A stretch of DNA of 1,475 nt from Naegleria gruberi (taxonomy: Eukaryota). Position 1 is the first letter of the stretch; every line of letters begins with the position of its first letter. This document shows positions 1-1,475 of this stretch, one piece after another. The notes beneath the pieces are model-generated. The model made no database searches. It worked only from the letters and a program-made list of their open reading frames with translations, and was not told the DNA's origin. Both the position numbers and the translations under genes were made by a program. The stretch lies in the NCBI GenBank assembly GCA_000004985.1, contig GG739412.1, one strand, 5' to 3'.

Positions 1-26
1 CACTACCACACAGAGAATCAGACGAT

Positions 27-162
27 ATGAATCACGTTACTGCTCATTACAAGCCTTTGTTGGATCAAATTAATGAATTGGAAAATTCGAGAAGGCTTCA
101 GGAATGCAAGCTGGTGGAAGAGAGGACCAGACATGCTAAGACTCTTAAGGAATTGGAGGAAT
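27..162 (+). CDS. Exon 1 (ATG at 27; ends phase 1 at 162). Frame 3 stays open back to nt 3, so the true start could lie upstream of the window
   Basis: Frame-3 translation of 27-161 is MNHVTAHYKPLLDQINELENSRRLQECKLVEERTRHAKTLKELEE with no stops. ATG at 27 has a purine at -3. Frame 1 (ORF-track frame, MNWKIREGFRNASWW...) is W/R-rich and unlike the rest of the protein. GTAAGT donor sits at 163. Confidence 0.6.
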
Positions 163-1014
163 GTAAGTATAGATGATTGTCAACAGATTTCTCAAAGGCT
201 AACTTTTTCAGTCAACTTGAAGCATCAAAAGCTGCTCGCTAATGAAACATTATTGAAGGAAAAGATTACTCATTTGGAGGCTGATTTGATGCATGAAATC
301 AAGACTGGTGAACAACTCAAGCAATCTGCCAAATACTGCAAGCAAGAGGAGGAGGTTTTTCAAACTCATTTGGCAAGATTTGAGGTGGAAAGTAATCAAG
401 TAATGTAAGTAGAGAATACTAATTGTATATCCTAATTGTGATGAAAAGTTGTGATTTGAAAAAGGAACTTGAGGATGCAGAGAAGAATTTTGAGAAGGCT
501 TGTGAAATGTGGAACAACCGACAAAATGTTAGAGAAATGCAAATGTTAAAATCTCAAGTTGAAGAATATGAAGGAAGTAAGTAATCAATGTTCAATAGTG
601 ATAATTGTTTCAGGACTAAGGGCTGATGAGAGTGTGTATGAGGAAAAATTGAAGAGAATTAAAAGTTTGGAGGCTCAAATCAAGATGAAGAAGGAGCAAT
701 CGAATGAGATGGACTCTTTCATCAAGTCTTTAGATGAAAAAATTGCACAGATGCATAATGATATTGAGAAGGCGAAGGGAAATTGTTCAATGGTAAATGA
801 TGTTATTTCTACTGAACAGGCAGAGTTGGCCATTCAACACTTTATAACTGAGAGCACTCAACTTCAAAAGAACCTTGAAGATATCCAAAACTACAATCAA
901 ATTACAAGAGAGGATATCGAGCACCACGAAAGAATGCAAGAAACCATCCTTCAGCTCATAGAATCAAAAATTTGTGAAGCATGTTATCAACTTGAAAACT
1001 CAATGGTAGATTAA
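27..1014 (+). CDS. Spliced protein-coding gene (4 exons: 27-162, 212-404, 449-576, 614-1014; stop TAA 1012-1014) encoding a ~285-aa predicted coiled-coil protein; function unknown
   Basis: Three open reading segments lie in different frames: frame 3 at 3-162, frame 1 at 214-404, frame 3 at 450-575 and frame 1 at 616-1014. They are joined exactly by GTAAGT...YAG introns with exon lengths summing to 858 nt (286 codons incl. stop). Conceptual splice gives MNHVTAHYKPLLDQINELENSRRLQECKLVEERTRHAKTLKELEE-F-NLKHQKLLANETLLKEKITHLEADLMHEIKTGEQLKQSAKYCKQEEEVFQTHLARFEVESNQV-I-CDLKKELEDAEKNFEKACEMWNNRQNVREMQMLKSQVEEYEG-R-LRADESVYEEKLKRIKSLEAQIKMKKEQSNEMDSFIKSLDEKIAQMHNDIEKAKGNCSMVNDVISTEQAELAIQHFITESTQLQKNLEDIQNYNQITREDIEHHERMQETILQLIESKICEACYQLENSMVD*. 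Composition (E/K/L/Q-rich, heptad spacing of hydrophobics) is uniform across all exons. That uniformity argues the junctions are real and the supplied ORF track (73..408, 559..1014) is an intron/wrong-frame artefact. Confidence 0.8.
163..211 (+). other. Intron 1 (49 nt): GTAAGT donor, CTAAC branch motif at 199-203, TTTTTCAG acceptor
   Basis: gtaagt at 163-168; ggCTAACtttttCAG ends at 211. Removal joins t(162)+tc(212-213)=TTC (Phe) and moves the reading frame from 3 to 1, exactly where the downstream open frame resumes (214...). If retained, frame 3 hits TGA at 174-176. Confidence 0.8.
212..404 (+). CDS. Exon 2 (phase 1 in, phase 2 out)
   Basis: Frame-1 codons 214-402 read NLKHQKLLANETLLKEKITHLEADLMHEIKTGEQLKQSAKYCKQEEEVFQTHLARFEVESNQV. 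This matches the downstream part of track ORF 73..408. GTAAGT donor at 405. Confidence 0.8.
405..448 (+). other. Intron 2 (44 nt): GTAAGT donor, TACTAAT (417-423) / CTAAT (432-436) branch candidates, AAAAG acceptor ending 448
   Basis: The in-frame TAA at 406-408 that ends track ORF 1 lies inside this intron. Splicing joins at(403-404)+t(449)=ATT (Ile) and shifts to frame 3, which is then open for 42 codons (450-575) up to the next GTAAGT. The alternative acceptor at 463-464 leads to an early stop. Confidence 0.8.
449..576 (+). CDS. Exon 3 (phase 2 in, phase 1 out)
   Basis: Frame-3 codons 450-575 read CDLKKELEDAEKNFEKACEMWNNRQNVREMQMLKSQVEEYEG with no stops. This segment is invisible in the ORF track because it has no ATG and is bounded by intronic stops. 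Confidence 0.78.
577..613 (+). other. Intron 3 (37 nt): GTAAGT donor, no canonical CTAAY branch (best candidate tgATAAT 598-604), TTGTTTCAG acceptor
   Basis: gtaagt at 577-582; ttgtttCAG ends at 613. Joins a(576)+ga(614-615)=AGA (Arg) and returns to frame 1, which is open for 133 codons to TAA at 1012-1014. The TTG 'start' at 559 in the track ORF is a bacterial-table artefact. Confidence 0.72.
614..1014 (+). CDS. Exon 4 (terminal exon, stop TAA 1012-1014)
   Basis: Codons 616-1011 read LRADESVYEEKLKRIKSLEAQIKMKKEQSNEMDSFIKSLDEKIAQMHNDIEKAKGNCSMVNDVISTEQAELAIQHFITESTQLQKNLEDIQNYNQITREDIEHHERMQETILQLIESKICEACYQLENSMVD, identical to the C-terminal 132 aa of track ORF 559..1014. Confidence 0.85.
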
Positions 1015-1026
1015 TTTATTGAGCTT

Positions 1027-1032
1027 AATAAA
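1027..1032 (+). promoter_or_regulatory. Putative polyadenylation signal AATAAA in the 3' UTR
   Basis: aataaa at 1027-1032, 13 nt downstream of the TAA stop, followed by a U-rich stretch (tctttgtactatgtttg). Confidence 0.45.
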
Positions 1033-1041
1033 TCTTTGTAC

Positions 1042-1080
1042 TATGTTTGAGATGAATATCAAATTCATATATGTTTGAGA
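1042..1080 (+). repeat. 11-nt direct repeat TATGTTTGAGA (1042-1052 and 1070-1080) flanking a small AT-rich inverted repeat (ATGAAT 1052-1057 / ATTCAT 1063-1068)
   Basis: Exact 11/11 match with 28-nt spacing. The central 6-bp stem with 5-nt loop is read directly from the sequence. Lies in the presumed 3' UTR just after the poly(A) signal. Confidence 0.5.
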
Positions 1081-1269
1081 ACTTTTCAATTAATAACAGA
1101 GTGGGATAGCTCCAAATCTGACGGAAAGTGCAATGTCTTATTGAAGCCAGCCAAAGTGTGCAATTAAGCACAACTCTGAACCCAACAAAAAATTGAGATA
1201 ATAGTATTGCACCCCGTAGGATGCTTTCAGCTATTACACTGAAAAGAACAGATACTACACTCGATCAAA

Positions 1270-1279
1270 GCCAATTGGC
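1270..1279. promoter_or_regulatory. Perfect 10-bp palindrome GCCAATTGGC containing a CCAAT box on both strands
   Basis: gccaattggc at 1270-1279 is its own reverse complement. CCAAT pentamer at 1271-1275 (+) and 1278-1274 (-). Sits 38 nt upstream of the TATA-like element at 1317. Confidence 0.35.
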
Positions 1280-1316
1280 GAGAAAGATACTATGAAGAAT
1301 TGAAAAAAGCACAGAG

Positions 1317-1324
1317 TATAAATA
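1317..1324. promoter_or_regulatory. TATA-like box TATAAATA (reads TATTTATA on the opposite strand)
   Basis: tataaata at 1317-1324 in an ORF-free intergenic stretch. Orientation and target transcript undetermined. Confidence 0.3.
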
Positions 1325-1428
1325 GTACTGTTGTTATAAAGATAGGAATGTAGGTTCTTGTGGTATTGTTTTATTTTGATGAGTTTACCAATTGCTTGAA
1401 CATGCAGCAAGAGGACAAAAATTCTGTT

Positions 1429-1448: not shown

Positions 1449-1475
1449 TACCGACAATGGGGCTCGAACCCACGA
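1449..1475 (-). tRNA. Partial tRNA gene (3' portion only: T-arm, acceptor 3' strand, discriminator), truncated by the window edge; isotype not determinable
   Basis: Minus strand reads 5'-tcGTGGG-TTCGAGC-CCCAT-TGTCGGT-A-3'. That is a T-stem GTGGG/CCCAT (one G.U pair), a 7-nt T-loop TTCGAGC (T54 T55 C56 R57 A58), a 7-nt acceptor 3' strand and discriminator A at 1449, with the canonical G53-C61 pair. It is followed immediately by T-runs. D-arm and anticodon lie beyond nt 1475. Confidence 0.6.

What the first reader, a model, noticed from the sequence alone, without database searches (positions are those of the whole stretch)
27..1014. The two ORFs in the track are one spliced eukaryotic gene with three micro-introns
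Three GTAAGT donors (163, 405, 577) each sit exactly where an open frame ends and another frame opens. Pairing them with the nearest downstream polypyrimidine-AG gives introns of 49, 44 and 37 nt and a 285-codon ORF whose exon lengths sum to a multiple of three. The track ORF 73..408 reads through intron 1 and stops in intron 2. Track ORF 559..1014 starts at a TTG in exon 3's wrong frame. GTAAGT donors, CTAAC/CTAAT branch motifs, ~35-50-nt introns and ~36% GC are the signature of Schizosaccharomyces-type fungi. That taxon call is an inference. Prokaryotic gene-finding would mis-annotate this locus.
Basis: partly seen in the sequence, partly recalled or inferred. Interest (0 to 1): 0.55.

Follow-up and report, generated by a model that had tools for sequence, protein, structure and literature searches.

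The report
Three-intron Naegleria coiled-coil gene
The two "ORFs" are pieces of one ordinary spliced nuclear gene with three short introns, but it comes from a Naegleria gruberi-like amoeba rather than a fission-yeast-type fungus, and it encodes a coiled-coil protein of unknown function whose N. gruberi reference model appears to lack two exons.

Summary
Joining exons 27-162, 212-404, 449-576 and 614-1014 removes introns of 49, 44 and 37 nt and gives an open 858-nt CDS (285 aa plus stop). The product aligns without gaps across all three junctions to annotated proteins of Naegleria lovaniensis and N. fowleri (51% identity, E about 1e-66). I rebuilt their gene models from DNA: they carry three introns at exactly the same codon positions and phases, with identical exon 2 (193 nt) and exon 3 (128 nt) lengths. 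Willaertia magna shares introns 2 and 3. A 98.6%-identical metagenome contig differs from the window at five exon sites, all synonymous third positions in the spliced frame, and at five sites in the 130 nt of introns. A full-length U2 snRNA gene lies 87 nt downstream, so the DNA is eukaryotic nuclear. No relative was found in 185,579 bacterial and archaeal genomes. The taxon inference is wrong: this is an N. gruberi-complex heterolobosean, not a Schizosaccharomyces-type fungus. The protein is an all-helical coiled coil with no known family. This is an ordinary gene and the only new result is a small annotation correction.

The parts
27..162 (+). Exon 1: ATG plus 45 codons plus 1 nt. Encodes MNHVTAHYKPLLDQINELENSRRLQECKLVEERTRHAKTLKELEE, the hyper-conserved N-terminal motif.
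   Evidence: All 45 residues match N. gruberi XP_002674686.1. Against N. lovaniensis, codons 7-45 show 20 synonymous and 1 nonsynonymous codon change.
163..211 (+). Intron 1, 49 nt, phase 1. GTAAGT donor, GGCTAAC branch-like motif at 197-203, TTTTTCAG acceptor.
   Evidence: N. lovaniensis and N. fowleri have an intron at the same position and phase, 53 and 61 nt. W. magna has none here.
212..404 (+). Exon 2, 193 nt.
   Evidence: Exon 2 is 193 nt in N. lovaniensis and N. fowleri too. The protein alignment is gapless.
405..448 (+). Intron 2, 44 nt, phase 2. GTAAGT donor, TACTAAT at 417-423, and an acceptor AAAAG that is the first AG after the branch motif. No polypyrimidine tract.
   Evidence: Same position and phase in N. 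lovaniensis (59 nt), N. fowleri (52 nt) and W. magna (93 nt). The junction codon encodes I110, which is invariant among the three Naegleria proteins.
449..576 (+). Exon 3, 128 nt.
   Evidence: Exon 3 is 128 nt in N. lovaniensis, N. fowleri and W. magna. The three differences from contig L003 are all synonymous third-position changes.
577..613 (+). Intron 3, 37 nt, phase 1. GTAAGT donor, TTGTTTCAG acceptor, weak branch candidate TGATAAT.
   Evidence: Same position and phase in N. lovaniensis (68 nt), N. fowleri (50 nt) and W. magna (82 nt). The alternative acceptor at 598 would add 5 residues that no orthologue has.
614..1014 (+). Exon 4, including the TAA stop at 1012-1014. Encodes the C-terminal coiled coil and the C-x-x-C motif (KICEAC).
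   Evidence: 127 of 132 residues match N. gruberi XP_002674686.1.
1027..1032 (+). AATAAA, 13 nt after the stop codon. Candidate polyadenylation signal (inferred only).
   Evidence: It is the only AATAAA in the window, and the U2 gene begins 70 nt further on.

Best explanation
Window 27-1014 is a single nuclear protein-coding gene of a Naegleria gruberi-complex amoeboflagellate (Heterolobosea). Its pre-mRNA carries three short U2-type GT-AG introns (163-211, 405-448, 577-613). Each starts with GTAAGT, which fits the U1 5' end. Introns 1 and 2 have a CTAAC/CTAAT-like branch site that fits the GUAGUA box of U2 snRNA. Splicing gives an 858-nt CDS for a 285-aa all-helical coiled-coil protein. This protein is the orthologue of N. 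fowleri FDP41_003821, N. lovaniensis C9374_001646 and W. magna ABK040_007302. It is the full-length version of N. gruberi NAEGRDRAFT_50709, whose 183-aa reference model omits exons 2 and 3. Shown here: the exon-intron structure, orthology, purifying selection on the spliced frame and eukaryotic origin. Inferred: actual splicing in vivo, since no transcript data were available, and the protein's role. My best guess for the role, at about 0.3 confidence, is a dimeric coiled-coil scaffold or adaptor. Its invariant N-terminal 39 residues would bind a conserved partner, and its terminal C-x-x-C would form a metal or disulphide clasp.
For: The spliced ORF is open. The best hits are Naegleria proteins, E 7.6e-67 and 8.6e-66, 96% coverage, and the alignment has no gap at any junction. 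Exact reconstruction of the orthologue models gives introns after CDS nt 130, 323 and 451 in phases 1, 2 and 1. The window has 136, 329 and 457, the same once its two extra N-terminal codons are subtracted, and exons 2 and 3 are 193 and 128 nt in all three. W. magna has introns at the homologous sites of introns 2 and 3, also with a 128-nt exon between them. Environmental ORFs P0016 and P0017 end in ...KM* at the same intron-2 donor. Window versus contig L003: 5 of 5 exon differences are synonymous third positions in the spliced frame, and 5 differences fall in 130 intron nt against 5 in 575 exon nt. A U2 snRNA gene scores 107.6 bits against a cut-off of 46 at 1102-1290 on the minus strand. 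The upstream DUF3501 neighbour is shared by L003, L001 and L002. No relative exists in 185,579 prokaryotic genomes. N. gruberi protein P0014 equals the window product if donor 163 is joined to acceptor 598. The structure model is three long helices with mean pLDDT 85.
Against: No RNA-seq or cDNA was available, so the junctions rest on comparative evidence only. Intron 2 lacks a polypyrimidine tract and intron 3 lacks a clear branch motif. The related contig L003 carries an extra AG inside intron 2 and a mutated TACTAAT. The N. fowleri, N. lovaniensis and W. magna models are themselves automated annotations. The exact 285-aa product is not in the protein collection. The protein's function is unsupported by any family, solved-structure or fold match.
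Confidence: 0.93

Rival explanations
1. The N. gruberi reference model is the true or dominant product: a single 436-nt intron from donor 163 to acceptor 598, giving a 183-aa protein in which the stretches called exons 2 and 3 here are intronic.
For: XP_002674686.1 / EFC41942.1 (P0014) has exactly this structure, and the same join keeps the frame open in the window.
Against: Exons 2 and 3 are conserved as protein in N. lovaniensis, N. fowleri and W. magna, with identical exon lengths. All polymorphisms inside them are synonymous in the spliced frame. The 598 acceptor lies 22 nt downstream of a perfect GTAAGT donor and adds LIIVSG, which no orthologue has. A minor exon-skipping isoform cannot be excluded.
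Confidence: 0.04
2. Same gene, but intron 3 uses the nearer acceptor at 598. That gives a 22-nt intron and a 290-aa product with an extra MIIVS-type insertion.
For: This model also keeps the frame open and preserves the exon 2 and exon 3 lengths.
Against: It inserts 5 residues where all orthologues align without a gap. At 22 nt it is far below the 50-93 nt of the homologous introns and leaves no room for a branch site.
Confidence: 0.02
3. One reading: the locus comes from a Schizosaccharomyces-type fungus.
For: GTAAGT donors, CTAAC/CTAAT motifs, 37-49-nt introns and about 36% GC resemble fission-yeast genes.
Against: No fungal homologue appeared in a search of 5.8 billion proteins or in an exhaustive HMM scan of 1.84 billion representatives. 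All hits with a source name are Naegleria, Willaertia or Balamuthia. Identity to N. gruberi over the shared exons is about 97%.
Confidence: 0.005
4. A prokaryotic or phage locus with two independent ORFs (73-408 and 559-1014), as in the original track.
For: Both ORFs exist mechanically, and metagenome pipelines called them as genes.
Against: There is a U2 spliceosomal RNA gene in the window and no relative in 185,579 bacterial and archaeal genomes. The homology runs across the ORF boundaries only after splicing. The one difference from L003 inside ORF 73-408 that lies in exon 1 is nonsynonymous (P to Q) in the ORF's frame and synonymous in the spliced frame.
Confidence: 0.005

Closest known systems
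Naegleria gruberi NAEGRDRAFT_50709 (XP_002674686.1 / EFC41942.1, 'predicted protein', 183 aa)
   Same: Same gene in a very close relative. Exon 1 matches in 45/45 residues and exon 4 in 127/132.
   Different: The reference model joins exon 1 to an acceptor at window position 598 and lacks exons 2 and 3 (107 codons). The window also differs by 5 residues, so it is not strain NEG-M itself.
Naegleria fowleri FDP41_003821 (289 aa) and N. lovaniensis C9374_001646 (288 aa), hypothetical proteins
   Same: Full-length orthologues at 51% identity. They have three introns at identical positions and phases, identical exon 2 and 3 lengths, and an upstream DUF3501 neighbour.
   Different: Their introns are longer (50-68 nt against 37-49 nt) and unrelated in sequence. 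Their downstream neighbour is an abhydrolase gene, not a U2 snRNA gene.
Willaertia magna ABK040_007302 (KAL9642304.1, 310 aa)
   Same: Orthologue at 33% identity. Introns 2 and 3 sit at the homologous sites with a 128-nt exon between them. The N-terminal motif and the C-terminal LCMNC are present.
   Different: It has no intron 1, its introns are longer (93 and 82 nt), and it has an Asn-rich C-terminal tail.
Balamuthia mandrillaris QOT17_020538 (342 aa, hypothetical protein)
   Same: Distant homologue at 32% identity over 136 aa, pairwise E 2e-10. It has the same N-terminal LLxQIxELE...K..EE..H motif and a C-terminal CPQC.
   Different: It comes from an amoebozoan, is longer, and has a middle region that does not align. 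Its gene structure was not examined.
Short spliceosomal introns of Schizosaccharomyces pombe (recalled from general knowledge, not tested)
   Same: GTAAGT-type donors, CTAAC-like branch sites close to the 3' AG, and intron lengths of about 40-50 nt.
   Different: The organism here is a heterolobosean. The resemblance is convergent use of near-consensus U1 and U2 pairing signals and is not a taxonomic marker.

Membership tests
U2-type (GT-AG) spliceosomal introns | GT at the 5' end and AG at the 3' end, with an extended donor complementary to U1 | tested here: met
   All three introns run GTAAGT...AG. GTAAGT is enriched: 3 observed against 0.39 expected.
U2-type (GT-AG) spliceosomal introns | Removal restores one continuous reading frame that is homologous to known proteins across the junctions | tested here: met
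   The CDS is an open 858 nt, and the alignment to the Naegleria orthologues has no gap at any junction.
U2-type (GT-AG) spliceosomal introns | Intron position and phase conserved in orthologous genes while intron sequence and length are not | tested here: met
   Positions and phases are identical in N. lovaniensis and N. fowleri for all 3 introns, and in W. magna for introns 2 and 3. Lengths range from 37 to 93 nt.
U2-type (GT-AG) spliceosomal introns | Branch-site motif (YNYTRAY-like) upstream of the 3' AG | tested here: inconclusive
   Intron 1 has GGCTAAC and intron 2 has TACTAAT. Intron 3 has only TGATAAT. Intron 2 has no polypyrimidine tract.
U2-type (GT-AG) spliceosomal introns | Spliced junctions observed in transcripts | not testable with these tools
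   No RNA-seq or cDNA resource was available. No protein matching the spliced product exactly was found in the collection.
Naegleria/Willaertia coiled-coil protein family (FDP41_003821, C9374_001646, ABK040_007302, NAEGRDRAFT_50709) | Significant full-length sequence homology | tested here: met
   E 7.6e-67 and 8.6e-66 at 96% coverage. The profile hit to W. magna has E 1e-47.
Naegleria/Willaertia coiled-coil protein family (FDP41_003821, C9374_001646, ABK040_007302, NAEGRDRAFT_50709) | Invariant N-terminal motif YKPLLDQINELEN.RRLQECKL.EE and C-terminal C-x-x-C after a long coiled coil | tested here: met
   Both are present in the window product. The orthologue model is three long helices.
Naegleria/Willaertia coiled-coil protein family (FDP41_003821, C9374_001646, ABK040_007302, NAEGRDRAFT_50709) | Conserved gene neighbourhood | tested here: inconclusive
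   The upstream DUF3501 gene is shared, seen through the near-identical contig L003. The downstream neighbours differ: U2 snRNA plus tRNA here, an abhydrolase gene in N. fowleri and N. lovaniensis.
Schizosaccharomyces-type fungal gene | Closest homologues or genome hit in Taphrinomycotina or other fungi | tested here: not met
   No fungal hit appeared in any protein search. The nearest relative is N. gruberi.
Prokaryotic operon of two ORFs | Homologues in bacteria, archaea or phages, with the ORFs intact as independent genes | tested here: not met
   No relative in 185,579 prokaryotic genomes. The window holds a U2 snRNA gene. Homology spans the ORF boundaries only after splicing.

The most novel reading that the evidence does not exclude
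The gene encodes a previously unrecognised coiled-coil family shared by free-living amoebae of two supergroups: Heterolobosea (Naegleria, Willaertia) and Amoebozoa (Balamuthia). Its N-terminal 39 residues are almost frozen (20 synonymous against 1 nonsynonymous codon change between Naegleria species), which would suit a docking site for a conserved and still unknown partner in amoeboid cell biology. In the model species N. gruberi the family has gone unnoticed partly because the reference model lacks 107 codons.
Probability: 0.3. Interest if true: 0.3.

Novelty: new member of a known kind. Interest (0 to 1): 0.15.

Why it matters
The locus is an ordinary intron-containing protist gene, and orthologues with the same exon structure are already annotated in N. 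fowleri, N. lovaniensis and W. magna. It has three practical uses. It is a clean example of eukaryotic DNA in metagenomes being cut into false "bacterial" ORFs by prokaryotic gene callers. It suggests the N. gruberi reference model NAEGRDRAFT_50709 should be corrected from 183 to about 285 aa. It also shows that GTAAGT, CTAAC and short introns cannot be used to call a fission-yeast origin. The protein family itself is uncharacterised and might deserve a look from Naegleria cell biologists.

Tried and rejected
1. I looked up the window's prokaryote-style ORFs (559-1014, 73-408, 1255-1410 minus strand, 1025-1171 minus strand) to find the source contig. None is on record. Only the 47-aa ORF 441-584 led to a contig, L003.

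2. The locus of N. gruberi P0014 is not on record, so the NEG-M DNA could not be compared. The contig holding P0016 had no DNA available.

3. The spliced protein could not be handed to the exhaustive HMM search or to structure prediction because it is not a literal window translation. I used the orthologues instead.

4. Function assignment failed. Pfam gave only sub-threshold coiled-coil noise such as Fez1, Sec3_CC and GIT_CC. PDB sequence search gave only weak leucine-zipper and needle-protein similarity, E at least 0.017. Foldseek against PDB gave nothing with E below 8. I reject these as generic coiled-coil matches.

5. A literature search for the four locus tags and accessions returned no papers. 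No paper on Naegleria U2 genes turned up.

6. ARAGORN found no complete tRNA. The tRNA fragment at the window end is seen only as a truncated, sub-threshold Rfam match.

7. The first bacterial-genome scan, using the wide alignment, failed for lack of conserved columns. I repeated it with the Naegleria alignment.

8. I did not run the metagenome-contig scan, because the evidence was already sufficient.

Full report
**Observation**

The window is 1475 nt and 35.5% GC. GTAAGT occurs exactly three times, at 163, 405 and 577, all on the + strand. Dinucleotide-preserving shuffles expect 0.39 copies, and only 1 of 200 shuffles reached three. Each copy lies where one reading frame closes and another opens:

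- The frame-3 ORF 27-176 ends 11 nt into the first candidate intron.
- The frame-1 ORF 73-408 ends at the TAA inside the second GTAAGT.
- The frame-3 ORF 423-584 ends at the TAA just after the third GTAAGT.
- Frame 1 is then open to 1014.

Joining 27-162, 212-404, 449-576 and 614-1014 removes 49, 44 and 37 nt. The result is an uninterrupted 858-nt CDS of 285 aa plus stop. Two descriptive details are loose. Intron 2 has no polypyrimidine tract (4 of 12 pyrimidines before its AG), and intron 3 has no CTAAC/CTAAT motif.

**Is it eukaryotic?**

An Rfam scan found a full-length U2 spliceosomal RNA gene on the minus strand at 1102-1290. It scores 107.6 bits against a gathering score of 46, with E 2e-22. 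It has the GUAGUA branch-site box and an Sm site AAUUUUUUG. A U2 gene is direct proof of eukaryotic nuclear DNA. A scan of one genome from each of 185,579 bacterial and archaeal species found no relative of the protein.

**Whose gene is it?**

The spliced product hits only two proteins at E below 1e-3 among 5.8 billion. They are hypothetical proteins of Naegleria lovaniensis (C9374_001646, 288 aa, E 7.6e-67) and N. fowleri (FDP41_003821, 289 aa, E 8.6e-66), each at 51% identity and 96% coverage.

An exhaustive profile search of 1.84 billion representatives added Willaertia magna ABK040_007302 (310 aa) and several short environmental fragments. Two of those fragments are prokaryote-style ORF calls on this very locus.

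A cluster look-up then revealed the N. gruberi reference protein XP_002674686.1 / NAEGRDRAFT_50709 (183 aa). It is identical to the window product in all 45 residues of exon 1 and in 127 of 132 residues of exon 4. The window therefore comes from a member of the N. gruberi species complex. It is not strain NEG-M itself, and it is not a fungus.

A 2038-nt metagenome contig, L003 (ENA ERZ929261), overlaps window 1-731 at 98.6% identity. It extends upstream to a DUF3501 gene, which is also the upstream neighbour in N. fowleri and N. lovaniensis.

**Test of the splice model**

1. The three-way protein alignment has no gap at any junction. The junction-spanning residue I110 and the residues L154 and R155 right after junction 3 are invariant.

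2. I rebuilt the annotated N. lovaniensis and N. fowleri models from their DNA by exhaustive GT-AG search against the deposited proteins. Each has a unique solution with three introns after CDS nt 130, 323 and 451, in phases 1, 2 and 1. The window's introns follow nt 136, 329 and 457. These are the same sites once the window's two extra N-terminal codons are subtracted. Exon 2 is 193 nt and exon 3 is 128 nt in all three species. The introns themselves differ in length (37-68 nt) and sequence.

3. W. magna, a different genus, has introns at the homologous positions of introns 2 and 3, also with a 128-nt exon between them, but lacks intron 1.

4. Environmental ORFs from other Naegleria-like contigs (P0016, P0017) terminate in ...KM* at the same ATGTAAGT donor of intron 2.

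5. Between the window and L003 there are ten differences. Five lie in the 130 nt of introns. Five lie in 575 nt of exons, and all five are synonymous third-position changes in the spliced frame. One of them is nonsynonymous (P to Q) in the frame of the prokaryote-style ORF 73-408.

6. Of 13,821 GT-AG models with up to three introns that link ATG27 to the stop at 1014, only two reproduce the conserved exon 2 and 3 lengths. The other one puts the intron 3 acceptor at 598, giving a 22-nt intron. It would insert five residues that no orthologue has.

Together this is about as strong as comparative evidence can be without transcripts. No RNA-seq was available, so splicing in vivo remains inferred.

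**A by-product: the N. gruberi reference model looks wrong**

XP_002674686.1 reads ...TLKELEE-LIIVSG-LRADES.... This is what the window yields if donor 163 is joined to the AG at 598, a 436-nt "intron". That model discards exons 2 and 3, which total 107 codons. Those codons are conserved as protein in three other annotated species and are under purifying selection in the N. gruberi lineage. A minor exon-skipping isoform cannot be excluded, but as the main product this model is very unlikely.

**The protein**

AlphaFold on the orthologue alignment gives three long helices (7-130, 136-209, 221-273) with mean pLDDT 85 and pTM 0.31, the low pTM being typical of an elongated model. Pfam, PDB sequence search and Foldseek against PDB return only sub-threshold coiled-coil noise.

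Three features stand out:

- The N-terminal segment (window residues 7-45) is almost invariant among Naegleria species that are only 51% identical overall. Against N. lovaniensis it shows 20 synonymous and 1 nonsynonymous codon change, so the constraint acts on the protein and not on the DNA.
- A C-terminal C-x-x-C is conserved in Naegleria, Willaertia, an unnamed environmental homologue and Balamuthia.
- There is a distant homologue in the amoebozoan Balamuthia mandrillaris (QOT17_020538), with pairwise E 2e-10 and the same N-terminal motif.

Function is unknown. My best guess, at low confidence, is a dimeric coiled-coil scaffold with an N-terminal partner-binding motif and a terminal Cys clasp.

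**How the features compare with published Naegleria genome statistics**

A published comparison gives N. gruberi NEG-M 33% GC, 1.7 exons per gene and a mean intron length of 203 bp. For N. fowleri it gives 35-36% GC and a mean intron length of 126-144 bp (PMC8296547). This gene, with four exons and 37-49-nt introns, is richer in introns and has shorter introns than those averages. Nothing about it is anomalous.

W. magna intron 2 contains CTAACTAACTAAC, and the Naegleria orthologues use GTAAGT or GTATGT donors.

**Verdict**

It is wrong about the taxon. The feature is an ordinary spliced protist gene and a new member of an already annotated, though uncharacterised, family. Its modest value is a correction to the N. 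gruberi reference annotation and a caution about calling a taxon from splice signals. Interest is low.

Noticed in passing
window 1102-1290 (- strand): A complete U2 spliceosomal RNA gene (Rfam RF00004, 107.6 bits, model positions 1-192) with the GUAGUA box and Sm site. A TATTTATA element lies about 25 nt upstream of its 5' end, near 1312-1319. The gene is convergent with the protein gene and ends only 87 nt from its stop codon. The orthologous loci of N. fowleri and N. lovaniensis have no U2 gene.
   Followed up: partly
window 1449-1475 (- strand): The 3' part (T-arm and acceptor strand) of a tRNA gene, cut off by the window end. On its strand it is followed by a T6 run, as expected for a Pol III terminator. 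The Rfam match is only sub-threshold (13.9 bits, model 45-71), ARAGORN finds nothing, and the anticodon lies outside the window.
   Followed up: partly
window 163-598, compared with N. gruberi XP_002674686.1: The N. gruberi reference protein (183 aa) corresponds to a single 436-nt intron from donor 163 to acceptor 598, so it omits the conserved exons 2 and 3. This is probably a mis-annotation in the reference genome.
   Followed up: yes
L003 1308-2038 (= window 1-731), intron 2: The 98.6%-identical environmental variant carries TATTAAT in place of TACTAAT and a new TAG (AG at window 434-435) inside intron 2. Splicing at that AG would shift the frame. This suggests either tolerance of a weakened branch site or use of the downstream AG by distance rules.
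   Followed up: no
L004 2501-3608 (Willaertia magna): The orthologue has introns 2 and 3 at the same positions and phases but no intron 1, so intron 1 was either gained in Naegleria or lost in Willaertia. Intron 2 there contains a triple CTAAC repeat. The downstream convergent neighbour is a BBS5-like gene (PF07289).
   Followed up: partly
window 45-161 (residues 7-45 of the product): This 39-residue N-terminal motif is almost invariant across Naegleria species (20 synonymous against 1 nonsynonymous codon change) and is recognisable in Balamuthia mandrillaris QOT17_020538. The rest of the protein is only about 40-50% conserved.
   Followed up: partly
P0015 (Logan contig, 53 aa): A Logan-assembly ORF for exon 3 ends in ...GSKIGRAHV. 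By my recollection of the adapter sequence, that tail is a translation of the Illumina adapter AGATCGGAAGAGCACACGTC, so the contig would end in untrimmed adapter.
   Followed up: no
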